Shown here piece by piece: positions 6,651 through 18,770 of a stretch of DNA of 32,000 nucleotides (the stretch's first letter is position 1; each line of letters opens with the position of its first letter). Source of the DNA: an uncultured Chloroflexia bacterium. Lineage in GTDB: Bacteria > Chloroflexota > Ktedonobacteria > Ktedonobacterales > JADMIN01. The stretch is taken from the NCBI GenBank assembly GCA_963718915.1, contig CAVRAI010000001.1, positions 450,001 through 482,000 on the forward strand, written 5' to 3'. Made by a program: the position numbers and the translations under genes. The notes beneath the pieces are model-generated. The model was not told where the DNA came from and ran no database searches. It worked only from the letters and a program-made list of their open reading frames with translations.

Positions 6651-8501
6651 TTACGGCAGGGCATAGATGGCGACGTTGGTGATAAAGATGACGCAGCGCG
6701 GCTCGGCGGCGAAGTCGAGGATGCCGCCGGAATAGGTGGTGTCGAGCGCCGTGGCGACGACTTTGCCGTCTATGGCGAAGCTGAACGTGCCGCCATTGAC
6801 GATGAGATCGTAGGTATGCGGCTGATCGAGCGTCGTCGGCAATTCACCGTCCTGAAGCGTCGTCTTGTGGCCGTCTACAGGATTGTAGGTATTGAACTCC
6901 CATTGGCCATTGGCGTCTACCAGAAAGCCATAGCCGCCGAAGGTAACCGCTTCAGGCGTCGCCGCCTGCTCGCGGAACTTGAAGCCGAAATAATCGGTGC
7001 GGCTGATGCCAATGGACTGTATCTGCGCCTGGATGATGTAGCTCTGTGGGAATGCGCCGTTGGGCAGGCGCTGCAGCTTGGCCAGCGCCAGCGGGCAGGA
7101 ACAATTCGCCCCGGTGAGCACTGTGCCGCCGCCCAGACAGTGCTGCTGCTGGCCCTCGACGTTCGTAAACCACTCCGCACTCTGGGTATCGCACTGGCCG
7201 GGGGCGCTGGTCGTGTAGAGCGCTTTGCCCGCGGGCACTAATGGCCGGAAGGCGTTCGCCGAGGACGAGGGTGTGGAGAGCACGGTGGCTACCGGAGTCG
7301 TCGGCGAGACCAGGCCAGACAGCGCTGGCAGAAGGCGTGGGGCGGAGAGTATTCCACCAATCACGATCACCAGCAGCGCCAGCACGAGGGTGCCTGTACG
7401 CATGGCGCGAGCAAGACCCCCTTTCGCCCCAGCGTTTCCTGGCGCCTTGTCACGGGGCTGCTGATTCTCAGGGAGTTTGCGCGTCGCGACCCGTGTGCGC
7501 GGATCGGCATAGGCCCCGTTCGCAGCTTCCAACTCTTCCAGCGCGCTTGCCGAATCGCTCAGCGTCGTATCGAGCGCGTGGTTGGGCGCCGCTGGCAGGG
7601 CGAGCGCGGGATGCCAGTCGCCGCTGAGTCCATCGTCGAAGGCGGCGGCGAAGGTTCCCGCACTCTCGAAGCGATCTTCGGGACGTTTGGCAAGCGCCTT
7701 GCGCAGCGCCGCGTCGGCTGGCTCCGGCAGTTCCGGTCGGAGCGCGCGCGCTGATGGCGGCGGGTTATTCAGATGTTGCAGCGCCAGTTGCAGGGGATCG
7801 CTAGCGCTAAAGGGCAGCGCGCCCGTCACCATCTGCCACGCCAGCACACCCAGCGCGTAAATATCCAGTTGCGGCGTGATCGCGCCACCAGTGAGCTGCT
7901 CGGGCGCCATGCAGGCGGGCGTCCCGATGACCTGCCCGGTGCGGGTGAGCGCTATAGCGCCAGTTGTATCGAGCGGCTGTGAGGCGCCGCGCTCGAAGAT
8001 GCGGGCAATGCCGAAATCCGCCAGAAGCGGCGTGCCGTCGCGATCCAGCAGCACATTGGCGCCCTTCACGTCGCGGTGTATCACGCCCTGCCTGTGCGCA
8101 TAGTCGAGCGCGCTGGCAATCTGGCGCAGATCGCTGGCAATGTCTTCCAGCGACAGCGGCCCAGCGGCCATCTTGCCCGCCAGCGTGCCGCCGGACATCA
8201 GTGGTAGCTCCATGTAGCTCAGCCCATTGACCTCGGCGTGGTAGCTGAGGATGGGCAGAATGTGCGCGTGGTGAAGCTGGCTGACCGCCTGCGCCTCGCG
8301 GAGAAAGCGCGTCTGAAAGGATACGAGTTCGGGGGTGGGCAGTTCATCATCTGGCAGCAAGAGCTTGATGGCCCGCTGGATCGAGGGGTCGTCGAGACGC
8401 TCGGCCAGAAAGACCGCGCCCGCGCCCCCCGCGCCGAGCAACGCCACCAGCCGATAGCCGCTGAGTACGCGGCCAATATAATCCTTCGCGGCTACCGCCA
8501 T
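6651..8501 (-). CDS. Transmembrane Ser/Thr protein kinase with a C-terminal extracellular jelly-roll (LamG/DUF1080-like) domain
   Basis: Hanks motifs are present: GAGGAGAVF, AIKLL, HRDVKGANVLL, DFG, APE. A TM helix (GTLVLALLVIVIGGILSA) follows. I placed the start at the internal ATG 8501 (MAVAAKDYIGR...), which has a GGAG 6 nt upstream. The 88 codons further upstream look non-coding. Confidence 0.9.
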   Translation of the reverse strand: MAVAAKDYIGRVLSGYRLVALLGAGGAGAVFLAERLDDPSIQRAIKLLLPDDELPTPELVSFQTRFLREAQAVSQLHHAHILPILSYHAEVNGLSYMELPLMSGGTLAGKMAAGPLSLEDIASDLRQIASALDYAHRQGVIHRDVKGANVLLDRDGTPLLADFGIARIFERGASQPLDTTGAIALTRTGQVIGTPACMAPEQLTGGAITPQLDIYALGVLAWQMVTGALPFSASDPLQLALQHLNNPPPSARALRPELPEPADAALRKALAKRPEDRFESAGTFAAAFDDGLSGDWHPALALPAAPNHALDTTLSDSASALEELEAANGAYADPRTRVATRKLPENQQPRDKAPGNAGAKGGLARAMRTGTLVLALLVIVIGGILSAPRLLPALSGLVSPTTPVATVLSTPSSSANAFRPLVPAGKALYTTSAPGQCDTQSAEWFTNVEGQQQHCLGGGTVLTGANCSCPLALAKLQRLPNGAFPQSYIIQAQIQSIGISRTDYFGFKFREQAATPEAVTFGGYGFLVDANGQWEFNTYNPVDGHKTTLQDGELPTTLDQPHTYDLIVNGGTFSFAIDGKVVATALDTTYSGGILDFAAEPRCVIFITNVAIYALP

Positions 8502-8960
8502 GCCACTCTCCACCTGTCTACGCCGACCTGCCCATCTCCCTTCCGCGCTGTCGGGGGCAGGTGTCCCCAGTATAAGCAACTGCTGAGCGCCTGGCAACTG
8601 TTCATTTTGCGTGGCAGACAATCCGTCACGAAGTGAAATCGATGACACAAATCGCGTCAGAAATACTCCAAAGGATGGAGGGTTTCCCCATGAGCATGTT
8701 CGTATAATCTGTCGGGCTAACCTGTCGAACTCATCCGCTGGGCAGGCGGGAGCATACTCTTGCATGGATTATGTTGGGCTTTGGGCGCACGCTGGGCATA
8801 TCTGGGCATAGATGTAGCAGACCGAAGGACGATAGCGATCACTTCGCGGGATATTCAGAAAACGACGATTAAGACGATACATGGATGGCCAGACGGTTGG
8901 AGCCGACCTGGCGGATAGCAGCAAAAGCCTCTGGGCTGTTTTTGGAAGGGCTGACTGACT

Positions 8961-11360
8961 ATGCGAGTGCAAGAGAAACCCCATGACGCGGTCGCCACGA
9001 CTGGTGAATCCACGGGGACGGATAGCGATGGCAAACTGCATACCCACGGTCTCTACCGTCTTGGCTTCAACTATGGACACATGATCTATCGCTTTCGGTG
9101 GCTGGTGATCGCGCTTTGGGCTGTCGGGTTGGCGGTCAGCCTGCCCTTCGCGGCGCAATTGACCTCCAAGCTGACCGGCGGCGGCTATCAGACGAGCAAC
9201 AGCGAGTCGGTTCGCGTCGGCAATACCATGGTAGACCGCCTGCACGCGCCGCCATCCACCCTGCTCGTCGTCTTCCACTCTGATAGTGTCGCGGTGAGCG
9301 ATCCGGCGTATCAGGCGCAGGTAAGCGCCATCGCCGACAAGTTCCGCGCCTATCCGCACGTGACCAGCGTGGTGAACGCAGGCCCTGGCACGGACGGGAA
9401 AACGACCTACCTCGCCGTGAATTTCGATACGAATAGCGACTACGTCGAGACGCGCATTCCCGATATCACGCAGATGCTGCCGAGTGGGTCGGACGCTGGC
9501 CCGGCGACGATCTATCTGACGGGCAGCCCCGCGATCTACGCCGAGTTTACCTCGATTACCCAGCACGACGCCGAGCGCGCCGAGATGTTCGCGCTGCCGG
9601 TGGCGCTGCTGGTGCTGCTGATCGTCTTTGGCTCGCTGCTGGCCGCGCTGACGCCGCTGACGCTGGCGCTGGTGGCGGTGCCGGTGGCGATGGCGATCAT
9701 CTATCCCATCGCGGCGCATAACGAGATGAGCGTCTTCGTCCTCAACGTCGCGACGATTGTGGGCCTGGGCATCTCGATAGACTACAGTCTCTTCATGACC
9801 CGCCGCTTCCGCGAGGAGCTGGGGAGCGGTCGCTCGGTGCGGGACGCCGTCGCCTGGACCGTCTCGACGGCGGGCGAGGCGATTCTTTTCAGCGGCCTGA
9901 CGGTGCTGATCGGCTTTGCGGGGATGTTGCTGATCGGCATCCAGTTCATGACCTCGATTGGCGTGGGCGGGATGTGTGTGGTTGGGGCGGCGGTGCTGGC
10001 CGCGCTTACGCTGCTTCCGGCGCTGCTGAGTGTCCTTGGCCATAAGGTGAACGCGCTGCGCATTCCGCTGATTGGCAAACTGGTGGCCCGCCGGAGGCAC
10101 GAGGTCGCCGCGAACGCCGAGCAGCGTGGCTTCTGGCACGGCTGGGCGATGGCGGTGATGCGCCGCCCAGTGCTGATTATCCTTGGCGTCTGCGCGGTGC
10201 TGGTGGTGCTGGGCTGGCCGATTCTCTCGATCAACATTGGCACGCCAACCTCGACCTCGCTGCCCGCGACGGCGGCGTCACGGAAGGGCATCGAACTGGT
10301 GAATGCCCAGTTCCCCTCCTCGAACGAGAATCCGGTCTACATCATCGCGAAGACGCCCGATGGCTCCAGCATGATGACGGCGGAGAACCTGGCGAAGCTG
10401 GAAAGCCTCTCGAACTGGCTCGCGGGGCGCGCACATGTGACGAGCGTGACCAGCCTGACGATGCTGCCACAGACGGAGGGCGGCCAGACGCTGACGAGCG
10501 ATCAGCTTATCGCGCTCTATACGACGGGCGCATACCAGCAGGATCAGGCGCTGACGCGGCTGGTCGGTTCGACGACCGATAAAGACATCACACTCATCAC
10601 CCTCAACACGAACGCGCCGGTAGATAGCGCCGAGGGCAAGGCGCTGATCGACGACCTGCGCAATCACTACGGCGAAGGCTCCCAAGGGCTGACGATACAG
10701 GTAGGCGGCTTCCAGGCGATCAGCCTCGACTTCAACCGCTTCCTCTATGGCAACTTCCCGAAGGCCATCGCCTTCATTCTGGGGGCGACCTTCATCCTGT
10801 TGCTGCTGATGTTCCGCTCGTTGCTGCTGCCGCTCAAGGCGGTCATCATGAACGTGCTCTCGGTCAGCGCGGCGTATGGTGTGCTGGTCTTCATCTTCCA
10901 GGAAGGCCACTTCGACACACAGCTTGGCTTCACCTCGAATGGGTTCATCGATAGCACGGTGCCGATTCTGCTGTTCTGTATCCTCTTTGGCCTCTCGATG
11001 GACTATGAGGTCTTCCTGCTCTCGCGCATCCGCGAAGAGTGGCTGCGGACGCACAACAACCGCTACGCAGTGGCGCGCGGACTGGAGAAGACGGGCGGCG
11101 TCATCACCAACGCGGCGCTGCTCTTCATCATCGTGGCGGGCTCGTTCATCTTCACGGGCATCGTCATCATGAAGGAGACGGGCCTGGGGATGACGCTGGC
11201 GGTGCTGATCGACGCGACGATCATCCGCACGCTGCTGGTCCCCGCGACGATGCGCCTGCTGGGCCGCTGGAACTGGTGGCTCCCTGGCCGTCCGCTACCA
11301 GTAGAGCAGCCAGCGCCAGTAGAGCAGCCAGCGAAGCAACTGGCGGAGCAGTCGATATAG
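8961..11360 (+). CDS. MMPL-family (RND superfamily) membrane transporter
   Basis: 799-aa ORF with two 6-TM bundles and MMPL signatures (GISIDYSLFMTRRFREEL, GLSMDYEVFLLSRIREE, IDATIIRTLLVPATMRLLGRWNWWLP). Confidence 0.95.
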   Translation: MRVQEKPHDAVATTGESTGTDSDGKLHTHGLYRLGFNYGHMIYRFRWLVIALWAVGLAVSLPFAAQLTSKLTGGGYQTSNSESVRVGNTMVDRLHAPPSTLLVVFHSDSVAVSDPAYQAQVSAIADKFRAYPHVTSVVNAGPGTDGKTTYLAVNFDTNSDYVETRIPDITQMLPSGSDAGPATIYLTGSPAIYAEFTSITQHDAERAEMFALPVALLVLLIVFGSLLAALTPLTLALVAVPVAMAIIYPIAAHNEMSVFVLNVATIVGLGISIDYSLFMTRRFREELGSGRSVRDAVAWTVSTAGEAILFSGLTVLIGFAGMLLIGIQFMTSIGVGGMCVVGAAVLAALTLLPALLSVLGHKVNALRIPLIGKLVARRRHEVAANAEQRGFWHGWAMAVMRRPVLIILGVCAVLVVLGWPILSINIGTPTSTSLPATAASRKGIELVNAQFPSSNENPVYIIAKTPDGSSMMTAENLAKLESLSNWLAGRAHVTSVTSLTMLPQTEGGQTLTSDQLIALYTTGAYQQDQALTRLVGSTTDKDITLITLNTNAPVDSAEGKALIDDLRNHYGEGSQGLTIQVGGFQAISLDFNRFLYGNFPKAIAFILGATFILLLLMFRSLLLPLKAVIMNVLSVSAAYGVLVFIFQEGHFDTQLGFTSNGFIDSTVPILLFCILFGLSMDYEVFLLSRIREEWLRTHNNRYAVARGLEKTGGVITNAALLFIIVAGSFIFTGIVIMKETGLGMTLAVLIDATIIRTLLVPATMRLLGRWNWWLPGRPLPVEQPAPVEQPAKQLAEQSI

Positions 11361-11384
11361 TTGAGTAGCCTATCACAAATACAC

Positions 11385-11429
11385 GAGCCGGGAGTGCGAT
11401 ACGTCGCCCCTCGGCTCTTATTGTAATTT
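11385..11429 (+). terminator. Putative rho-independent terminator of the MMPL gene
   Basis: GAGCCGGG...CCCTCGGCTC stem followed by TTATTGTAATTT, 25 nt after the stop codon. The feature is conserved in R2. Confidence 0.5.
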
Positions 11430-11454
11430 CGTTCCGGCACAGGCCTAGAACGCA

Positions 11455-11463
11455 TGGTATGAT
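11455..11463 (+). promoter_or_regulatory. Extended -10 element (TGgTATGAT) for TA cassette 1
   Basis: TGGTATGAT lies 33 nt upstream of the GTG start and an AAGGAGGG RBS is at 11482-11489. The identical nonamer is found before cassette 2. Confidence 0.5.
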
Positions 11464-11495
11464 GCCACTGAATATAGCTCTAAGGAGGGTGGGAC

Positions 11496-11729
11496 GTGGA
11501 TCAACAATCGCTTGAACACCTCACTGCCGTCGAGCGGTCGCCTGAGATTCTAAGTGGCGCGTGGCGCTTTCGTGGCACACGCGTCCCCGTGGCAGCACTG
11601 TTCGAGAACTTGCGCGATGGGGCGACAGTCGCGGAGTTTCTTGCATGGTTTCCCGGAGTCACCAGGGATCAGGTAGACGAGGTTCTGGACAATGAGATTC
11701 ATGCCTTGCGGAGTTCCGGGGCGTTATGA
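11496..11729 (+). CDS. DUF433-domain protein (predicted antitoxin), cassette 1
   Basis: 77 aa with a DUF433-like core (GAWRFRGTRVPVAALFENLRDGATVAEFLAWFPGVTRDQV). Strong RBS. ATGA overlap with the downstream gene. Confidence 0.8.
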   Translation: MDQQSLEHLTAVERSPEILSGAWRFRGTRVPVAALFENLRDGATVAEFLAWFPGVTRDQVDEVLDNEIHALRSSGAL

Positions 11730-12055
11730 GGATTCTGTTTGACCAGGGAACGCCGCAGCCACTACGCCGCCAACTCGCAGGACATAATGTGGACACGGTC
11801 TATGAGCAGGGATGGTCTACTCTCAAGAATGGTGTTCTGCTCGCGACGGCTGAGCGGGCAGGCTATGACCTCTTCATCACAACCGACCAGAATCTTCGCT
11901 TTCAACAGAACCTCACAGGGCGTCACCTGGCCATCCTGGTTCTGAAGACGACCTCCTGGCCAAAAATCCGGCAAGATATTGGACGTATTCAGAGCGCGGT
12001 GGACACCATAACTGCTGGCGCTTATCTTGAGATCACAGTTGATGTAAGTCCGTAG
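11726..12055 (+). CDS. DUF5615 / PIN-like (Mut7-C-like) protein (predicted toxin), cassette 1
   Basis: 109 aa. The N-terminus MRILFDQGTP...LAGHNV...LFITTDQN matches the DUF5615 pattern (MxxLxDxxxP..GHxV...TxDxDF). It is translationally coupled to the DUF433 gene. Confidence 0.75.
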   Translation: MRILFDQGTPQPLRRQLAGHNVDTVYEQGWSTLKNGVLLATAERAGYDLFITTDQNLRFQQNLTGRHLAILVLKTTSWPKIRQDIGRIQSAVDTITAGAYLEITVDVSP

Positions 12056-12270
12056 CGCGCCTTATAACTAGCACGGAATCTGCCTAGCGAGATTGTGCGC
12101 TGCCTACGTGTGTTCACTGCTGGCGCCCGCGACGATGCGCCTACTGGGCCGCTGGAACTGGTGGCTCCCTGGCCGTCCGCTACCAGTAGAGCAGCCAGCG
12201 CCAGTAGAGCAGCCAGCGAAGCAACTGGCGGAGCAGTCGGTATAGTTGAGTAGCCTATCACAAATACACG

Positions 12271-12310
12271 AGCCGGGAGCACGATACATCGCCCCCGGCT
12301 TTTGTTGTGT
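12271..12310 (+). terminator. Putative rho-independent terminator (copy within R2)
   Basis: AGCCGGG...CCCGGCT stem followed by TTTGTTGTGTT. Confidence 0.5.
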
Positions 12311-12338
12311 TCTCGCCCCAATATATACCCAAATGGCG

Positions 12339-12347
12339 TGGTATGAT
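12339..12347 (+). promoter_or_regulatory. Extended -10 element (TGgTATGAT) for TA cassette 2
   Basis: Same nonamer and same flanking ga.c..ctga..atagct context as at 11455-11479. It lies 49 nt upstream of the ATG at 12396. Confidence 0.5.
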
Positions 12348-12395
12348 GACCTGAGCATAGCTTTCAATTGCATTGATAGATAAGAGGTAACGTAT

Positions 12396-12629
12396 ATGGC
12401 TGATCTGCTCGACCGCATCACCATGGATCCGGTAATCAATCACGGCAAACCAGTGATTCGCGGTCTCCGTTACCCCGTCGAATTGTTGCTGGAATTACTT
12501 AGTTCGGGCATGACAATTGACGAGATTCTCGCCGACTACGAAGACCTTGAGCGCGACGATGTGCTGGCGGCGCTTGCTTTTGCGGCGCGACTCGCCCAGG
12601 TCAAGCGCGTGGAATTGATCGGCCAGTGA
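12396..12629 (+). CDS. DUF433-domain protein (predicted antitoxin), cassette 2
   Basis: 77 aa with a textbook DUF433 core (ITMDPVINHGKPVIRGLRYPVELLLELLSSGMTIDEILADYEDLERDDVLAAL). Confidence 0.85.
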   Translation: MADLLDRITMDPVINHGKPVIRGLRYPVELLLELLSSGMTIDEILADYEDLERDDVLAALAFAARLAQVKRVELIGQ

Positions 12630-12946
12630 TCGGACGCCGTCTGCGGGAGGCTGGGCACGATGTGCTCCATACGCTGGACCTTCCTGACGGCAATCGCACG
12701 ACCGATGCGGAAATTAACGCCATCTCCGACCGAGAACAACGAGTCGTGGTCACCAAAGATGCGGATTTTGTCAACACGTTTCTCTTAAAGCATCAGCCGT
12801 ACAAACTACTGCTCATCTCGACAGGCAATATCAGGAATGCTGCCCTGGAGACGCTACTGCTTACGCATCTGCCCGCGATTGTCTCGGCGTTCGGTTCTCA
12901 CGACTGCATCGAACTCTCCCGCTCGGCTCTCATTCTCCATGCCTAG
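12626..12946 (+). CDS. DUF5615 / PIN-like protein (predicted toxin), cassette 2; N-terminus appears shortened
   Basis: 106 aa from a GTG in a GTGA overlap. LREAGHDV...VVVTKDADF matches DUF5615, but the leading MxxLxD strand is missing. Confidence 0.7.
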   Translation: MIGRRLREAGHDVLHTLDLPDGNRTTDAEINAISDREQRVVVTKDADFVNTFLLKHQPYKLLLISTGNIRNAALETLLLTHLPAIVSAFGSHDCIELSRSALILHA

Positions 12947-12948
12947 CA

Positions 12949-13035
12949 GATGGCTCCCTGGCCGCAAGCTCCCGGTCGAACAGCCAGCGCCAGAAGAGCA
13001 GCCAGCGAAGCAACTGGCGGAGCAGTCGGTGTAGC
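12949..13035 (+). repeat. Direct repeat R3: third, most diverged orphan copy of the MMPL tail
   Basis: Encodes WLPGRKLPVEQPAPEEQPAKQLAEQSV*. It starts 3 nt after the cassette-2 toxin stop and is followed by different downstream sequence and a different terminator. Confidence 0.85.
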
Positions 13036-13112
13036 GCGAATAGCAAGTTCGCCACGTGTTGGATTAACCGGGTCGGGGCTGCAGACATCTCTGCTTGCTC
13101 TAGCCACGGCGC

Positions 13113-13158
13113 AACGGCCGAAGTGCGGCGAGATACTCTTGTACTTCGGCCGTTTCAT
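13113..13158. terminator. Strong hairpin, probably a bidirectional terminator between the MMPL-tail array and the convergent cupin gene
   Basis: Perfect 12-bp stem AACGGCCGAAGT / ACTTCGGCCGTT with an 18-nt loop, followed by TTCAT on the + strand. Confidence 0.55.
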
Positions 13159-13168
13159 GCGCTCGTCC

Positions 13169-13654
13169 TCATCCCACAGGCAGCGGCGGGCCGAGCAGTT
13201 CCATGCCGTGCGCGCGCCAGAGTTCGGGGTCCTGCGGGGGCATGGCGTTGGCCTTCGTCACCTTACGGAAGAAGGCCTCCATCTTCCCGGCGGGCATGAA
13301 CGTCACGAGCATCCTGCCCGTGGCATCGCCGACGTAGGCCCAGACATGGGGCACGTTTCGCGGCGCGAGCAATGCGTCACCGGGATGGAGCGCGAGCCGT
13401 TCGTCTCCCACCTCCATCAGGAACTCGCCCGCGACGACATAGAACCACTCATCCTGGTCGTAGTGGAGGTGGCGCGCGGGGCCACCCTTCGCGTGGAATG
13501 TGTTCTCGAGCACGAAGAGGCCGTCGCTGCCCTGCCCGGCCACCTTGAACTGGATGACGCTCACGCCCAGCCCGCGCGTCTCGCCGAAGCAATCCGCGCC
13601 TGATGCGACGCGCACGATGGGCGCCGCCCGCATTGGACTCTCATCCATATACAT
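13169..13654 (-). CDS. Cupin-domain protein
   Basis: 161 aa with cupin motifs (HLHYDQDEWFYVVAGEF...GDALLAPRNVPHVW). Confidence 0.85.
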   Translation of the reverse strand: MYMDESPMRAAPIVRVASGADCFGETRGLGVSVIQFKVAGQGSDGLFVLENTFHAKGGPARHLHYDQDEWFYVVAGEFLMEVGDERLALHPGDALLAPRNVPHVWAYVGDATGRMLVTFMPAGKMEAFFRKVTKANAMPPQDPELWRAHGMELLGPPLPVG

Positions 13655-14759: not shown

Positions 14760-14873
14760 ACAGGGCAAGGCGCCCAACCCTCGTCGCTGAGAGGCTTTCG
14801 CTACATTGAGGGCGAGCAGGCCGGAGCGGGAGCTTCATCGCCCTACTCCAGCCCGTTCATGTTGTACAAGTCT

Positions 14874-15893
14874 TTACGCGGTCTGTGGCTGGCGCCGGCC
14901 TTGCCTGCGCTGTTGCTGCTCGCCACGGATGAGCCTCCATGTGTCCATCCCGATCACGATCAAGATGCCCGCCGACGTGGCCAGCAGGCCGTAGTGGACG
15001 ACCTCGTTGACGCTGCTCAGCGCGCTGGCGCTAGCGCTACCGCCATTGGCGGCAACAACCCACTGGCCCGCCTGGAGCAGATAGGCCACGATGCCCAGCG
15101 CGGCGATGTCCGTCAGCACGCGCACCACCCGCTTCATCCGCACCCACTCCGGGCGGAAGAGGTTGACGACCGCCTGGGCGACGCTCACCGCCAACACCAG
15201 CAGCGTCGGGAGAGCCACCTGCTGCCAGATTGGCCCAAGCTGATAGTCGTCGAGCGCCGGGCCAAAGAGCAGGAATGGTCGGTCGAACGCCAGCCAGAGC
15301 CAGCCCACCATCACCACGATCCCGATGATCTCGCCAAGCGATTCCATGCGTGGAATCCGCGCTCCCTGACGCGCCGGAGCCGGAGCCTGCGGCGTGGGCA
15401 GACGCTTGGCGTTCCACTCCATTGTGGGCAGATAGGAGTCTACAGCCGTAAAGATGCCTGTGATCACCACGAACTGAATGGCGACCTGCATGACGACTGT
15501 GGTCATGACATCGCCGACGCTGAGCGGATTCCCACTGATCGCGAGCGCGACGAGCACCGCTGCGTAGATGGCGAGCGAGATCGCCAGGACGATCCAGAGC
15601 ACGCGCAGGTACAACGGGAAGAGCGTCGTGCCTATGAGCTGCCGCCCGAAGACGACGCGCGCCTCCTGGTTTGTCTGGTAGCGCCCCGCCGCGATCATTG
15701 GGTGACCATACTCTTGGAGAATGGCCGCCTGCTCGTCCTCGGTCAGTGGTCGGCCCAGCTCGGCCTCGCGATCATCCATCCGCGCCTGGATGTTCTCCGA
15801 AAGCTCGTTGACGATGTCATCCCGCTGGGTCTCCGGGAGGGACTTTGGCAGGTACGTTCTGACGTTGTGTACGTAGCGGTCGAGCAGGTTCAT
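14874..15893 (-). CDS. PadR-associated membrane protein (N-terminal DUF1700/HAAS-like helical domain plus multiple TM helices)
   Basis: N-terminus LDRYVHNVRTYLPKSLPETQRDDIVNELSENIQARMDD...EDEQAAILQEYGHP is typical of partners encoded downstream of PadR regulators. The start is 28 nt after the PadR stop. Confidence 0.75.
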   Translation of the reverse strand: MNLLDRYVHNVRTYLPKSLPETQRDDIVNELSENIQARMDDREAELGRPLTEDEQAAILQEYGHPMIAAGRYQTNQEARVVFGRQLIGTTLFPLYLRVLWIVLAISLAIYAAVLVALAISGNPLSVGDVMTTVVMQVAIQFVVITGIFTAVDSYLPTMEWNAKRLPTPQAPAPARQGARIPRMESLGEIIGIVVMVGWLWLAFDRPFLLFGPALDDYQLGPIWQQVALPTLLVLAVSVAQAVVNLFRPEWVRMKRVVRVLTDIAALGIVAYLLQAGQWVVAANGGSASASALSSVNEVVHYGLLATSAGILIVIGMDTWRLIRGEQQQRRQGRRQPQTA

Positions 15894-15920
15894 GTTACTC
15901 CTCCACAGTCATCCGAATCC

Positions 15921-16274
15921 TTAGTCTTCGAGACTGGGCAGCGGCACGGCGCCGACGATACGCTCCAGTGTCGCATCGATGGCGCGCCACTCGTCCAGCA
16001 GTTGCGCAAGGATCGTCTCGCCCTCGCGCGAGAGACGGTAGAAGCGCTTGTTGCGTTTGTTCTCCTCCCGCCAGACGCTTTCCAGCAGCCCCTGCGTCTC
16101 CAGCCGCCGCAAGAGCGGATAGAGGGTGTTCTCCTCGATATCCATGCCCTGGTCGGCCAGGGCCTTGCGCAGTTCGTAGCCGTAGTACTCCGTCCGCAGC
16201 TGCGCAAGCACCGCGACGATCAAGTAGCCGCGTCGCAGCTCCAGCCGCAGGTTGTCGAGCAATTCATCGTTCAT
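15921..16274 (-). CDS. PadR-family transcriptional regulator
   Basis: 117 aa with a winged-HTH core (YGYELRKALADQGMDIEENTLYPLLRRLETQGLLESVWREENKRNKRFYRLSREG). Confidence 0.9.
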   Translation of the reverse strand: MNDELLDNLRLELRRGYLIVAVLAQLRTEYYGYELRKALADQGMDIEENTLYPLLRRLETQGLLESVWREENKRNKRFYRLSREGETILAQLLDEWRAIDATLERIVGAVPLPSLED

Positions 16275-16287
16275 CGGCCTCGCCTAC

Positions 16288-16312
16288 TGTGTGACATACA
16301 GTATGTTGCACA
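16288..16312. promoter_or_regulatory. Palindromic candidate PadR operator
   Basis: TGTGACATACAGTATGTTGCACA contains the perfect ACATAC-A-GTATGT repeat and an overlapping ATGT-n3-ACAT. It lies 14-38 nt upstream of the padR start. A TATACT -10-like hexamer on the minus strand is at about 16315-16320. Confidence 0.5.
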
Positions 16313-16544
16313 TAGTATATGGCGCACAGGTGATGATGTCAAGGGGATGTTGCAAATCTGTTATGAAAGGCGCGATGCGCAGCGCTGGCGCGTTGTCTGG
16401 CAGAGGATGCTTAGAGCGCCGCTGTCGTCCTCTGCTACGGGCAGATACAGATGGTCCATGCTTTCCACTTTCTCTTTTGAGCATGAGAAGATGGAACGAA
16501 TGAGTGTCTTGATTCTTAAGATTGGGATGAGTCAGGAGGATAGG

Positions 16545-17252
16545 ATGACGGGACGGATGATCGAGTTCGATGCCAACGGATCGACCGCGCCGGGCTATCT
16601 GGCGACGCCAGACGGCGTGGATGCCGCCACGGGGTCAGGAGTGGTGGTTCTGCATGCATGGTGGGGACTGACGGAGCCGTTTCGCCAGGCATGCGACCGG
16701 CTCGCGGCGGCGGGGTACATTGCACTCGCCCCCGACCTCTACCATGGCAAAACGACCGCGTCGGTCGAGGAGGCGGAGGCGTTGGCCGGAGCGCTGAACC
16801 AGGAGGAGGAGCGGGTGCGCGGCGACATTCGCGGCGCGCTGCGATACCTGCGCGAAAACGGCGCTACCACCCCGGCGGATGGCCGCGGCGCGGTCGGTGT
16901 GATCGGTTTCTCGCTGGGCGGCGCCTACGCGCTTGATACATCCGTCGCGTTGCCCGAGGAGATCGCCGCCGTCGTCATCTTTTATGCCACCTATACTGGT
17001 CTGGACTATCGCGCCGCACAGGCCGCCTACCTCGGCCACTTTGCCGAGAACGACCCCTTCGAGCCGACGGAGTCGGTTGTAGAACTGGAGCAGGAGCTTC
17101 AAGCGGCGGGCAAACAGGTCAGTTTCTATACCTATCCAGGAACTACGCACTGGTTCTTCGAGCCAAATCGCCCGGATGCCTACGATGCCGCCGCCGCGAC
17201 CCTGGCGTGGGAGCGGACCATCGCCTTTCTGAACGCCGCGTTGCGACGGTAG
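16545..17252 (+). CDS. Dienelactone hydrolase-family alpha/beta hydrolase
   Basis: 235 aa with VVVLHAWWGL, nucleophile elbow GFSLGG and C-terminal THWF. The start ATG at 16545 has an AGGAGGA RBS. The 797-aa track ORF upstream of it is antisense artefact. Confidence 0.85.
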   Translation: MTGRMIEFDANGSTAPGYLATPDGVDAATGSGVVVLHAWWGLTEPFRQACDRLAAAGYIALAPDLYHGKTTASVEEAEALAGALNQEEERVRGDIRGALRYLRENGATTPADGRGAVGVIGFSLGGAYALDTSVALPEEIAAVVIFYATYTGLDYRAAQAAYLGHFAENDPFEPTESVVELEQELQAAGKQVSFYTYPGTTHWFFEPNRPDAYDAAAATLAWERTIAFLNAALRR

Positions 17253-17280
17253 TAGAGTAGTATCACCTGGAGAGAAGCTT

Positions 17281-17814
17281 ATGGATACCTTGTGGCGCGC
17301 CATCTTGTGGCAGCAGTTCGGCGCGGCCATTGATATGCTCGATAACGCCGTGGTGGCCTGCTCCGATGCCCTTTGGCGCCAGCCCGTCTGGCATGACCCG
17401 TCCGTCCCCTCATGGCGCACGGAGTTCTGGCGTGTCGCCTATCACACGCTCTTCTGGCTCGACCTGTATCTTTACGGCGCTGAGGAGGGATTCGCTCCCC
17501 CTGCGCCCTATATCCTGGCGGAGGATGACGCTGCTGGCGCGCTGCCCCCACAGCCTTTTACGAGGGAAGACATGCGCGCCTACCTCGCCTATACGCGCCA
17601 GAAATGTCACGCCACCATTGAGACGATGACAGATGAGCGGGCGCGCCAGCCCGTCAACTTTGACTGGATGAGGGAGGGCGAGGTCGTCAGCTACGCCGAG
17701 CTACAACTGTATAGCATGCGCCATATCCAGGAACATGCGGCCCAACTGAGCCTGCTGCTCGGGGAGCATGGCGTCCAGGCCGAGCGGATAGACTGGGTGA
17801 CGCGCGCGGGATGA
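17281..17814 (+). CDS. DinB-family (four-helix-bundle) protein
   Basis: 177 aa with a DinB-like pattern (W...AYHTLFWLDLYL ... YSMRHIQEHAAQLS). Confidence 0.7.
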   Translation: MDTLWRAILWQQFGAAIDMLDNAVVACSDALWRQPVWHDPSVPSWRTEFWRVAYHTLFWLDLYLYGAEEGFAPPAPYILAEDDAAGALPPQPFTREDMRAYLAYTRQKCHATIETMTDERARQPVNFDWMREGEVVSYAELQLYSMRHIQEHAAQLSLLLGEHGVQAERIDWVTRAG

Positions 17815-17840
17815 TCCCGGTGTCCCAGGTAGACGCCCGC

Positions 17841-18500
17841 TCAGGCTACGGTGAATGTACTGACAATCTGCTGGGCCAGTTGCTGGCGGGAGAGATTGGG
17901 CATCGTATCGGTCATGCTCATCTGCGCGATGAAGCCGTAGACTGTGTAGAAGAACTGCGCGCCCGCGACGATGGCGAACGTTTGCGCGAATGGTTCCGCG
18001 TCGAACGGTTTGTTGGGATCGCTAGTCGCCGATGGGTTGACCGAAACGGTTGCCGCATCCTGCGCATGCTGAACGCTGAGGGCGCCGAGGGTCACGACCT
18101 CGTACTGGTTGGCCTGAGCCTGTACCCACTGCTGGATAGACTCTCCGTTCCGTGGCGTCGCGGTGACGCTGAACAGGTTGCCGATAATGAGCGTCTGTTG
18201 GCCATTCGGTCCCTGGATCCGCTGGCAGCTATTCTCCGTCCATGTCGCCGGGTAGCTGAAGCTGAGCTGCATCGAGGTATCGCTGAAGAGCCTGGTAGAG
18301 CCAGTCGCTGTACTATCGCACGTAAATGTCGTCAGCGCGGGTGTCGATGTGGCCGTCGCGGGTATCGCCGTAGCGGTGACGGTAGGGGCAAGCGTCGCGG
18401 TATGCGTGGAACTGGCGACGGGTTGGGATGCGCCACATCCCGCCATCAACAAACAGAGAGCAAGGGCGCCTGCCCAGGCTCGATAACGGCGTCTCAGCAT
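17841..18500 (-). CDS. Hypothetical lipoprotein
   Basis: Signal peptide with lipobox (ALALCLLMAGC), a Thr/Ala-rich linker and a GGAGG RBS. No family recognised. Confidence 0.7.
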   Translation of the reverse strand: MLRRRYRAWAGALALCLLMAGCGASQPVASSTHTATLAPTVTATAIPATATSTPALTTFTCDSTATGSTRLFSDTSMQLSFSYPATWTENSCQRIQGPNGQQTLIIGNLFSVTATPRNGESIQQWVQAQANQYEVVTLGALSVQHAQDAATVSVNPSATSDPNKPFDAEPFAQTFAIVAGAQFFYTVYGFIAQMSMTDTMPNLSRQQLAQQIVSTFTVA

Positions 18501-18770
18501 TCAGGTATACCTCCATGACTGCTGGTTGTCACAAACCCTCATAATTTGGGGCATTGTAGCAGGGAAGCGACAAATAGTCAATGGTGTTCGAGCGAGTGCG
18601 CGACTCATCTGCAACCCGCGTCGCGCCAGATCGTAGTTCGTTTGTACCGCGTCCGTCTCCGTTCGGTTGAGTCGCCATAGCCCGTGCATGCGCTGACTCC
18701 CTGCGGCGGGTGAGGGCGCGGTGGCATTGGCGTACCCGGCGTGCGAAGCCGGGAGAAAGGTTGGCAGGGC

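What the first reader, a model, noticed from the sequence alone, without database searches (positions are those of the whole stretch)
11228..13035. Three copies of the MMPL gene tail bracket two different DUF433-DUF5615 toxin-antitoxin cassettes (serial 3'-end displacement array)
The last about 130 nt of the MMPL CDS, its stop codon and the sequence beyond it (11228-11479) recur at 12114-12362. The two copies are near-identical by eye over about 170 nt. The orphan copy encodes LLAPATMRLLGRWNWWLPGRPLPVEQPAPVEQPAKQLAEQSV*, against the resident ...LLVPATMRLLG...AEQSI*. A shorter and clearly more diverged third copy (12949-13035, WLPGRKLPVEQPAPEEQPAKQLAEQSV*) begins 3 nt after the second toxin stop. 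The two gene pairs between the copies belong to the same families but have very different sequences, so this is not a simple tandem duplication. The picture is conserved junctions with variable cargo. That geometry is expected if an incoming module carries a replacement 3' end, recombines into the resident gene and pushes the old tail downstream. Two established parallels are orphan toxin/immunity arrays behind rhs and cdiA genes, and tandem island accretion at an att site inside a gene's 3' end. On that reading R3 would be the ancestral tail. I do not know of this being described for MMPL transporters or for DUF433/DUF5615 modules. No integrase or transposase is visible in the window.
Basis: partly seen in the sequence, partly recalled or inferred. 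Interest (0 to 1): 0.75.

Follow-up and report, generated by a model that had tools for sequence, protein, structure and literature searches.

The report
Displaced MMPL gene tails bracket cassettes
Behind a conserved membrane-transporter (MMPL) gene of a soil Ktedonobacterales bacterium, two unrelated toxin-antitoxin modules sit one after the other, each followed by a leftover copy of the transporter gene's last codons. Related genomes carry no, one or two such modules at this spot, in either order, or quite different cargo, so it is a real recombination hot spot of the kind known from rhs and type VI toxin loci, not a new kind of mobile element.

Summary
The MMPL gene's 3' end occurs three times: R1 (11232-11360, resident), R2 (12117-12245) and R3 (12951-13034). 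R1 and R2 also share a post-stop terminator hairpin and a promoter-like block. The copies bracket two dissimilar DUF433/DUF5615 modules. The second module's toxin has lost its start and first 13 codons.

In the close MMPL orthologues (79-94% identical), 10 of 13 downstream arrangements carry orphan tails. The site is empty in L008. L002 has TA1 only. L001 has TA2 before TA1. Other loci carry other cargo: a cyclase, a hydrolase plus SDR, a Vsr-ATPase-Dcm island, a methyltransferase and a 425-aa gene. None of 71 distant MMPL loci has a convincing orphan tail.

Orphan start points vary from -185 to about -10 nt before the stop, and no recombinase was found. The gene's last 400 nt are its most conserved part (91-97%).

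Best explanation: incoming DNA anchored by homology in the MMPL gene brings its own gene end and joins inside the resident tail. The tail copies then act as homology arms for later insertion, deletion and gene conversion.

This is a new variant of rhs/cdiA/T6SS 3'-end displacement. Interest is moderate.

The parts
8961..11360 (+). Resident MMPL transporter gene (799 aa). Its last ~400 nt are the recombination anchor.
   Evidence: Pfam MMPL, E 2.4e-91. Orthologues are 79-94% identical. The last 400 nt are 91-97% identical to all orthologues, against 80-92% over the whole gene.
11232..11360 (+). R1: the resident copy of the tail (LLVPATMRLLGRWNWWLPGRPLPVEQPAPVEQPAKQLAEQSI*).
11361..11495 (+). 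Intergenic block I1. It holds a terminator-like hairpin (11385-11417) and an extended -10-like TGGTATGATG (11455-11464), followed by the TA1 RBS.
   Evidence: The hairpin folds at -20.9 kcal/mol, z -2.7. The block is repeated at 12246-12362. The TGGTATGATG core also precedes TA copies outside the MMPL context. The consensus promoter scan did not call it.
11496..11729 (+). TA1 antitoxin (DUF433, 77 aa).
   Evidence: Pfam DUF433, 58 bits. 88% nt identity to the L002 and L001 copies.
11726..12055 (+). TA1 toxin (109 aa, PIN-like DUF5615 relative). Its start overlaps the antitoxin stop (ATGA).
   Evidence: DUF5615 at 22.5 bits, below the cut-off of 23.8. There are 2506 homologues at E<=1e-10, some carrying PF18480 or named 'predicted nuclease of predicted toxin-antitoxin system'.
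12056..12116 (+). TA1 3' flank with junction motif m (12087-12108, GCGAGATTGTGCGCTGCCTACG) immediately left of the orphan tail.
   Evidence: The same motif abuts an orphan tail after TA1 in L002 and, as a variant, in L089-L098. It also follows the SDR gene in L005/L006. It is absent after a TA1 homologue in a non-MMPL context.
12117..12245 (+). R2: orphan tail (LLAPATM...AEQSV*), 5'-truncated, with no MMPL body upstream.
   Evidence: 96% identical to R1. Relative to the L002 orphan it has a ~29-nt secondary deletion at its left edge. It shares a 96-nt exact run and a derived RPLPVE patch with R1.
12246..12395 (+). Intergenic block I2. It holds a hairpin (12270-12300) and TGGTATGATG (12339-12348), followed by the TA2 RBS.
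   Evidence: The hairpin folds at -22.5 kcal/mol, z -3.4. Alignment to I1.
12396..12629 (+). TA2 antitoxin (DUF433, 77 aa).
   Evidence: Pfam DUF433, 81.7 bits. Homologous copies occur in L001, L007, L008 and L104.
12626..12946 (+). TA2 toxin remnant (DUF5615). It is 5'-truncated by a 49-nt deletion at about 12634/12635.
   Evidence: The Pfam match starts at profile position 15. The alignment with intact L001 TA2 (MRFLVDAHLPRRIA...) shows the deletion.
12951..13034 (+). R3: the oldest orphan tail (WLPGRKLPVEQPAPEEQPAKQLAEQSV*). It abuts the conserved downstream synteny.
   Evidence: 89% identical to R2. It keeps the RKLPVEQ codons seen in all relatives. Downstream, cupin-DUF347-HAAS-PadR is collinear with L003 and L008.
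13036..13168 (.). Window-specific spacer with a strong hairpin. It is probably a bidirectional terminator shared with the convergent cupin gene (13169-13654, minus strand).
   Evidence: Folds at -63.6 kcal/mol, z -5.0. It has no similarity to I1/I2 or to L003.

Best explanation
The 3' end of this MMPL gene is a recombination hot spot at the edge of a variable region.

Step 1 (inferred). DNA from a related strain enters carrying the MMPL 3' end plus whatever lay downstream of it in the donor. Its left side recombines homologously in the highly conserved last few hundred nucleotides of MMPL. Its right side joins illegitimately inside the recipient's own tail. This is homology-facilitated illegitimate recombination. 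The gene keeps a complete, donor-derived end, and the old end is left downstream as a 5'-truncated orphan.

Step 2 (inferred from shared junctions). Once a cargo block sits between two tail copies, those copies act as portable homology arms. The block can then enter any resident tail by ordinary homologous recombination. It can also be lost by recombination or small deletions between copies, and neighbouring copies can be homogenised by gene conversion.

In the window, TA2 arrived first and left R3. TA1, with its characteristic m-orphan right junction, arrived later and produced R2. Afterwards R1 and R2 were homogenised, 29 nt were lost at the left edge of R2, and 49 nt were lost from the TA2 toxin.

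The cargo here is two VapBC-like PIN/COG2442 modules. TA1 looks intact, and TA2 retains only its antitoxin in working form. Each module has its own promoter-like block.
For: Shown:
- The window has three tail copies with dissimilar cargo between them.
- Thirteen arrangements were compared: the window, L001, L002, L003, L005, L006, L007, L008, L089, L092, L095, L103 and L104. Ten carry orphan tails; L006, L008 and L103 do not. L008 and L103 have no orphan at all.
- Orphans follow six different cargo types. After TA1 they start at -160, after TA2 at -84, after the cyclase at about -185 (L003) or about -163 (L007), and after the 425-aa gene at about -90. The second orphan in L089 starts at -130. 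The remnants at the right end of the abhydrolase+SDR cargo block in L005 and the methyltransferase cargo block in L092 start at about -14 and about -10.
- The TA1-m-orphan junction is the same in three lineages: the window, L002 and L089-L098. In two of them (window and L089-type) the orphan also carries the LLAPATM change.
- The order is reciprocal. TA1 sits in front of TA2 in the window, and TA2 in front of TA1 in L001. In both genomes the distal module has the decayed toxin.
- The L002 orphan ends in a short tail followed by TAAACGCT, like the resident tail at the empty L008 site.
- Orphans erode by small deletions. L005 and L006 differ by 75 nt flanked by AACG, and L001 lacks the 360 nt that hold the L003 orphan.
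- The last 400 nt of MMPL are 91-97% identical across orthologues that are 80-92% identical overall.
- No recombinase domain was found in the window ORFs tested or in the gene tables of the related loci.
- None of 71 distant MMPL loci has a convincing orphan; there were only three marginal 19-33-nt matches.

Published precedent for the mechanism: PMC5361080.
Against: - No recombination event was observed directly. The mechanism is inferred from footprints.
- Motif m lies at the same -160 junction behind two different cargoes, TA1 and the SDR gene. I explain this by common descent of one junction, but I did not show it.
- All orphans are shorter than 200 nt. Purely random illegitimate joints inside a 2.4-kb gene might be expected to leave longer ones sometimes.
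- No microhomology could be assessed at the primary joints, because no donor configurations were available.
- The sequencing platform and read support of the window's own assembly are unknown.
Confidence: 0.75

Rival explanations
1. Site-specific recombination. The MMPL tail, perhaps together with motif m, is an att-like or attC-like site. Small cassettes are inserted and excised by an integrase encoded elsewhere in the genome, as in tandem accretion of integrase-less elements or an integron-like platform.
For: The geometry is right: direct repeats bracket each cargo block, and the newest block lies next to the gene. Motif m sits at the same -160 junction behind two different cargoes. Cassette order differs between genomes.
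Against: Orphan left boundaries fall at seven or more different positions. The duplicated stretch varies from about 10 to about 230 nt and includes the terminator. No integrase or transposase domain appears in the window ORFs tested or in any related locus. The only conserved imperfect inverted repeats are ordinary terminator hairpins. Motif m has no inverted partner and is absent from TA1 elsewhere.
Confidence: 0.08
2. Assembly chimera. Two co-occurring strains, one MMPL-TA1-orphan and one MMPL-TA2-R3, were joined by the assembler inside the shared tail. On this reading the three-copy array does not exist in any single genome.
For: R1 and R2 share a 96-nt exact run. Single-cassette haplotypes exist (L002). 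The read support for the window is unknown.
Against: A two-cassette array with the same architecture lies in L001, inside an 800-kb MAG contig. Three tail copies also occur in L089. In relatives the orphan linked to TA1 carries RKLPVE, not the derived RPLPVE patch. A switch would therefore have had to occur in a run of only about 30 nt upstream of that patch. Even if the window were chimeric, the hot spot and the orphan tails would remain.
Confidence: 0.05
3. Local tandem duplication of [tail + intergenic block + TA], followed by divergence of the two TA pairs.
For: The repeats are direct and the unit lengths are similar (885 and 789 nt). Both pairs belong to the same two families.
Against: The repeats are 96% identical, while the antitoxins share 38% identity and the toxins are not alignable. 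Each pair has closer relatives in other genomes, at 88% and 74% nt identity. Relatives carry one pair without the other, or both in reverse order.
Confidence: 0.02

Closest known systems
C-terminal displacement arrays of rhs genes and orphan cdiA-CT/immunity modules (Jackson et al. 2009 and Poole et al. 2011, as cited in PMC5361080)
   Same: An intact gene is followed by 5'-truncated orphan copies of its 3' region, in the same orientation, with non-homologous material between them. Array length and content vary between strains. No dedicated recombinase is involved.
   Different: In those systems the displaced 3' region is itself the variable, selected part: a toxin domain with its immunity gene. 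Here the displaced part is a short, low-complexity C-terminal tail of a transporter. The variable material is independent genes located after the stop codon, such as TA modules, enzymes and a methylase/Vsr island.
Sequential displacement of T6SS effector-immunity modules in Vibrio cholerae, proposed to occur by homology-facilitated illegitimate recombination (Kirchberger et al. 2017, PMC5361080)
   Same: A conserved upstream anchor, successive insertions that shift older material downstream, remnants of earlier 3' ends, and intermediate forms found in other strains. That paper also considers and rejects an integron-like route for lack of an integrase.
   Different: That case has a different gene class and phylum, and retained immunity genes give an obvious selective reason for the arrays. 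Here the distal cargo decays instead: both distal toxins are truncated.
Tandem accretion of integrative elements at an att site in the 3' end of a gene (tRNA, tmRNA or protein-coding targets; from general knowledge)
   Same: The 3' end of the target gene is duplicated on both sides of each insert, and the gene is restored by the incoming copy.
   Different: That process needs an integrase and a fixed core site. Neither was found here: boundaries vary, and the inserts are only 0.8-4.2 kb with no recombinase.
PIN-COG2442 (DUF433) VapBC-type toxin-antitoxin systems, e.g. vapBC10 of Synechocystis (PMC3834315)
   Same: A DUF433 antitoxin lies upstream of a PIN-like toxin with overlapping stop and start codons. 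[quoted passage not shown]
   Different: The toxins here belong to the DUF5615 PIN-like branch, and no activity has been tested. The TA2 toxin has lost its N-terminus.

Membership tests
3'-end (C-terminal) displacement array (rhs / cdiA / T6SS type) | An intact resident gene followed by one or more 5'-truncated orphan copies of its 3' end in the same orientation | tested here: met
   R1 is resident; R2 and R3 are orphans.
3'-end (C-terminal) displacement array (rhs / cdiA / T6SS type) | Non-homologous cargo between the repeats, and polymorphism between strains in number, order and content | tested here: met
   TA1 versus TA2. Thirteen arrangements were compared.
3'-end (C-terminal) displacement array (rhs / cdiA / T6SS type) | The displaced 3' region encodes the variable functional domain (a toxin) paired with a cognate immunity gene | tested here: not met
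   The displaced region is a 27-42-aa tail, WLPGR(K/P)LPVEQP..., with no domain of its own. The cargo is autonomous genes located after the stop codon.
Integrase-mediated insertion / tandem accretion at an att site | A tyrosine or serine recombinase gene in or next to the array | tested here: not met
   No such Pfam domain in the window ORFs tested or in the gene tables of the related loci. A recombinase encoded elsewhere in the genome cannot be excluded.
Integrase-mediated insertion / tandem accretion at an att site | The same core or crossover position at every insertion | tested here: not met
   Orphans start at about -185, -163, -160, -130, -90, -84, -42, -14 and -10 nt from the stop.
Integron cassette array | intI, attI, and an attC imperfect inverted repeat at the 3' end of each cassette | tested here: not met
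   No IntI-like gene was found. The only inverted repeats are GC-rich terminator hairpins that lie 5' of the cargo.
Type II toxin-antitoxin, PIN-COG2442/DUF433 (VapBC-like) | A small DUF433 antitoxin gene directly upstream of a PIN-like toxin gene with overlapping stop and start | tested here: met
   DUF433 scores 58 and 81.7 bits. The junctions are ATGA at 11726-11729 and GTGA at 12626-12629.
Type II toxin-antitoxin, PIN-COG2442/DUF433 (VapBC-like) | The toxin scores above the curated threshold and has a complete PIN-like core | tested here: inconclusive
   TA1 toxin: 22.5 bits against a cut-off of 23.8, although many homologues are annotated as TA nucleases. TA2 toxin: 67.7 bits, but profile positions 1-14 are missing because of a 49-nt deletion.
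Type II toxin-antitoxin, PIN-COG2442/DUF433 (VapBC-like) | Growth arrest by the toxin and neutralisation by the antitoxin | not testable with these tools
   This needs expression experiments such as those done for vapBC10 (PMC3834315).

The most novel reading that the evidence does not exclude
The MMPL tail, together with the conserved junction motif m, could be a genuine cassette-capture site served by an unlinked and so far unrecognised recombinase. That would make it an integron-like gene-acquisition platform embedded in the 3' end of a transporter gene in Chloroflexota, which gathers TA, restriction-modification-like and metabolic cassettes.
Probability: 0.07. Interest if true: 0.85.

Novelty: new variant of a known kind. 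Interest (0 to 1): 0.5.

Why it matters
3'-end displacement arrays are usually discussed as a speciality of polymorphic-toxin loci, where selection for new toxin/immunity pairs explains them. Here the same footprint appears behind an ordinary transporter gene, and the displaced tail has no obvious function.

This suggests that such arrays are a general by-product of one-sided homologous recombination at the border between a highly conserved gene end and a variable region.

The locus offers a natural series from uncultured Ktedonobacterales populations: empty, single, double, reordered, decayed and different-cargo states. In this series, homology-facilitated illegitimate recombination can be studied in nature, along with later cassette shuffling through the duplicated arms.

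It also shows how TA and methylase/Vsr modules spread without any mobile-element machinery.

Tried and rejected
- A wobble-degenerate tail pattern scanned against 185,579 species genomes gave one locus only, L001. The repeat is therefore not a dispersed element, and the source genome is not in that set.
- A tail pattern scanned against JGI metagenome contigs gave 0 hits.
- An exact-protein look-up of both window antitoxins found nothing on record.
- A protein-based metagenome scan returned only distant MMPL genes, at most 71% identical. I used them as a negative control for orphan tails.
- Motif m in viral contigs gave one match with unrelated flanks, judged to be chance. The tail pattern in viral contigs gave 0 hits.
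- The cassette region searched against plasmids gave only weak hits (68-74%) to DUF433/DUF5615 genes of Chlorohelix, Thermus and Synechocystis plasmids, with no shared flanks.
- I tested whether motif m is part of the TA1 module. It is absent after a TA1 homologue in a non-MMPL context. By eye it does not read as MMPL coding sequence either.
- The consensus promoter scan did not call the TGGTATGATG blocks. Their promoter role rests on position and conservation only.
- The contig for orthologue P0005 returned a gene table but no DNA.

Full report
OBSERVATION

The window carries an MMPL transporter gene at 8961-11360 (Pfam E 2.4e-91). Its last ~130 nt recur twice downstream.

- R1 (11232-11410) and R2 (12117-12295) are 96% identical over 179 ungapped nt. 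With gaps the match runs to 11479/12362, 248 nt at 87.9%. It includes a 96-nt exact run.
- R3 (12951-13034) is 89% identical to R2 over 84 nt. It stops being similar at its stop codon.
- A 33-nt core occurs three times in the window and never in 100 shuffles.

The part of the R1/R2 repeat beyond the stop codon has two elements:

- A GC-rich hairpin followed by Ts (11385-11417 and 12270-12300; z -2.7 and -3.4).
- A TGGTATGATG block (11455-11464 and 12339-12348). The consensus promoter scan does not call it.

Two gene pairs lie between the copies.

- TA1 spans 11496-12055 and TA2 spans 12396-12946.
- Both antitoxins are DUF433 (58 and 81.7 bits). They share only 38% identity over 52 aa.
- The toxins are not alignable by BLASTP.
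- The TA1 toxin scores just below Pfam's DUF5615 cut-off (22.5 against 23.8). It has 2506 homologues, some named as TA nucleases.
- The TA2 toxin matches DUF5615 only from profile position 15. Alignment with the intact copy in L001 shows a 49-nt deletion that removed its RBS, ATG and first 13 codons.

WHERE IT COMES FROM

The closest MMPL proteins are named Ktedonobacterales by their sources. The only genome hit for the tail is an uncultured Chloroflexia MAG. The window itself is not on record in the collections searched.

COMPARATIVE EVIDENCE

Orthologues 79-94% identical (P0001-P0013) were traced to their contigs. A TA1-toxin homologue (P0122) was traced to a further population. Flanking synteny is conserved: a kinase upstream and cupin/DUF347/HAAS/PadR downstream. 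The stretch directly behind MMPL is highly variable.

| Locus | Arrangement behind MMPL |
|---|---|
| L008 | MMPL, DUF347 (empty site) |
| L103 | MMPL, 105-aa gene, Amt, cupin (no orphan) |
| L002 | MMPL, I, TA1, m, orphan, GNAT |
| Window | MMPL, I, TA1, m, R2, I, TA2 (truncated), R3, cupin |
| L001 | MMPL, cyclase, hydrolase, 163-aa gene, SDR, orphan, I, TA2 (intact), orphan, I, TA1 (toxin truncated), GNAT remnant |
| L003 | MMPL, cyclase, orphan, hydrolase, 114-aa gene, GNAT, cupin |
| L007 | MMPL, I, antitoxin 2 only, cyclase, orphan |
| L005 / L006 | MMPL, hydrolase, SDR, m, (orphan in L005 only), cyclase |
| L089 type | MMPL, terminator, TA1, m, orphan 1, Vsr-HATPase_c_3-Dcm, orphan 2 |
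| L092 / L095 | As L089 up to orphan 1, then 123-aa gene and methyltransferase, then a tail-end remnant |
| L104 | MMPL, 425-aa gene, orphan, TK, Amt, TA2-like pair |

These arrangements rest.

Ten of the 13 arrangements carry at least one orphan tail. As a control I used 71 distant MMPL loci (40-63% identical) that had at least 400 nt of downstream sequence. None has a convincing orphan; there were three marginal 19-33-nt matches.

Neither is met, and its predictions are fulfilled.

WHAT THE JUNCTIONS SAY

1. **Orphan left ends differ with the cargo.**
   - After the cyclase the orphan starts at about -185 nt from the stop in L003 and about -163 in L007.
   - After TA1 and after the SDR gene it starts at -160.
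   - Orphan 2 of L089 starts at -130.
   - After the 425-aa gene it starts at about -90.
   - After TA2 (R3) it starts at -84.
   - In L001 the orphan starts at about -42.
   - The remnants in L005 and L092 start at about -14 and about -10.
   - A site-specific recombinase would give one position.

2. **Each cargo keeps its own right junction across genomes.**
   - TA1 is always followed by a ~22-nt motif m (GCGAGATTGTRCGCT..ACG, or the variant GCGAGGCTGTATGCT..) and then an orphan starting at GGTGCTGATCGAC. This holds in the window, L002 and L089-L098.
   - In the window and the L089-type loci the orphan also carries LLAPATM instead of LLVPATM.
   - The window's R2 is this same junction with about 29 nt lost.

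3. **What follows the junction depends on the recipient.**
   - In L002 the orphan runs into a short tail (..PAPSA*) followed by TAAACGCT. That resembles the resident end at the empty L008 site, and GNAT comes next.
   - In the window the orphan runs into a full long tail, then I, then TA2.
   - Reciprocally, in L001 the tail after TA2 runs into I and TA1.
   - This is what is expected if a cassette flanked by two tail copies enters a resident tail by homologous recombination.

4. **In both two-cassette genomes the distal module is the decayed one.** In the window it is the TA2 toxin and in L001 the TA1 toxin. This fits the rule that older cargo lies further from the gene.

5. **R1 and R2 have been homogenised.**
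   - They share a derived patch (CGTCCGCTACCAGTAGAG, RPLPVE). R3 and every relative have CGCAAGCTCCCnGTCGAG, RKLPVE.
   - R1 and R2 are identical over 96 nt, while the closest relative differs by about 12%.
   - The two I copies of L001 are likewise closer to each other than to their window counterparts.
   - This points to gene conversion between neighbouring copies.

6. **Orphans erode.**
   - L006 differs from L005 by a 75-nt deletion flanked by AACG.
   - L001 lacks the 360 nt that hold the L003 orphan.
   - The L003 and L095 orphans have internal deletions.
   - The L089 orphan has an in-frame stop.

WHY HERE

The last 400 nt of the gene are its most conserved stretch at the nucleotide level. 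They are 91-97% identical to every orthologue, against 80-92% for the whole gene. They border a variable region. The peptide after WLPGRKLPVEQP varies freely among orthologues in length and sequence, so junctions in it are tolerated. That this explains the hot spot is an inference.

MECHANISM

I commit to homology-anchored insertion with displacement of the gene's 3' end. The primary events are homology-facilitated illegitimate recombination. Secondary spread, reordering and loss occur by ordinary homologous recombination between tail copies, accompanied by gene conversion and small deletions.

- **Shown:** the repeats, the polymorphism, the variable and cargo-specific junctions, the homogenisation, the decay, and the absence of recombinase genes in all fetched DNA.
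- **Inferred:** the order of events, the route by which DNA entered, and the enzymology.

The same model was proposed for Vibrio T6SS effector-immunity arrays, and that paper notes it was also hypothesised for rhs loci (PMC5361080).

The cargo in the window belongs to the PIN-COG2442/DUF433 class, which was validated experimentally as a toxin-antitoxin system in Synechocystis. [quoted passage not shown] Whether an intact TA1 stabilises the array against deletion between the repeats is speculation.

RIVALS

- **Site-specific or integron-like capture (0.08).** It is supported only by the geometry and by motif m lying at the same junction behind two cargoes. It is opposed by the variable boundaries, the variable duplication length (about 10 to 230 nt) and the lack of any recombinase.
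- **Assembly chimera (0.05).** It cannot be excluded for the window itself. However, the same architecture lies in L001 within an 800-kb MAG contig, L089 also has three tail copies, and the sequence pattern would require a switch in a ~30-nt run.
- **Tandem duplication with divergence (0.02).** It is contradicted by 96% identical repeats around unalignable toxins, and by relatives that carry one cassette alone.

COMPARISON AND NOVELTY

The locus works like rhs/cdiA/T6SS displacement arrays. It fails one defining feature of that family: the displaced segment is not the variable functional domain, and the cargo is independent genes after the stop codon. It also fails the defining features of integrase att-site accretion and of integrons. 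I therefore class it as a new variant of a known kind.

I found no description of this for MMPL genes or DUF433/DUF5615 modules. My literature checks were limited to two searches.

VERDICT

Interest is moderate (0.5). It is a clean natural series for studying recombination at the border of a conserved gene. It also suggests that 3'-end displacement arrays need not depend on selection for toxin diversity.

Noticed in passing
window 12626-12946 (deletion point about 12634/12635): The TA2 toxin lacks its RBS, ATG and first 13 codons because of a 49-nt deletion relative to the intact copy in L001. The TA2 copy in L008 has a larger deletion fusing antitoxin and toxin. L007 keeps only the antitoxin. 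The TA1 toxin in L001 is truncated after about 11 codons. Toxin loss is therefore recurrent.
   Followed up: yes
window 12087-12108; L002 3072-3093; L005 7304-7325; L006 4775-4796; L089 about 2874-2895: A ~22-nt motif (GCGAGATTGTRCGCT..ACG) sits immediately left of the orphan tail start at -160. It occurs behind two different cargoes, TA1 and an SDR gene. Its origin is unexplained: it is not MMPL coding sequence and not part of TA1 elsewhere. One viral-contig match looks like chance.
   Followed up: partly
window 16275-18740, compared with L003 15534-15905 and L008 12919-13802: A second variable spot lies between the PadR gene and the ARPP-1 gene. The window has a dienelactone hydrolase, a DinB_2 protein and a 235-aa ORF there. 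L003 has nothing. L008 has a decayed TA2 copy without any MMPL tail.
   Followed up: partly
L089 2190-2215; L008 13005-13030; window 11450-11470 and 12334-12355: A near-identical promoter-like core (GCGTGGTATGATGCGCCTGA) precedes TA1 in L089 and TA2 in L008, although their coding sequences are barely related. It may be an operator for DUF433 antitoxins or a lineage-typical extended -10 promoter.
   Followed up: no
L089 3095-6984: One cargo block between two orphan tails is a Vsr endonuclease, a 658-aa HATPase_c_3 protein and a C-5 cytosine methylase, all on the opposite strand. This is a restriction-modification or defence-like islet. In sister assemblies a methyltransferase block occupies the same position.
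   Followed up: partly
L103 5840-5895; tails of P0001-P0013: The MMPL C-terminal tail is internally repetitive (PVEQPA PVEQPA KQLAEQSV) and mosaic among orthologues. In L103 a stop codon interrupts an otherwise recognisable long tail (..PAPSE* PVRQLVEQLV*). Some short tails are therefore truncated long ones. The repeats could be scars of earlier insertion and deletion cycles.
   Followed up: no
L001 about 7205-7215 (minus strand): The MMPL orthologue in the MAG has an extra G (ATCGGCGGTG against ATCGCGGTG) about 165 nt before its stop. This shifts the frame of the last ~55 codons. It could be a sequencing error or a real inactivation, and it lies close to the -160 junction position.
   Followed up: no
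window 11400-12950: The cassette region has lower G+C (46-58% in 200-nt windows) than the MMPL gene and the downstream genes (62-68%). This is consistent with foreign origin of the TA modules.
   Followed up: no
window 8769-10139 (-), 10278-11054 (-), 14859-17252 (+): Very long ORFs lie on the strand opposite to, or overlapping, real genes: the MMPL gene and the HAAS/PadR genes. They are shadow ORFs typical of high-GC DNA, not genes. Only the 3' third of 14859-17252 (16545-17252) is a real DLH gene.
   Followed up: partly
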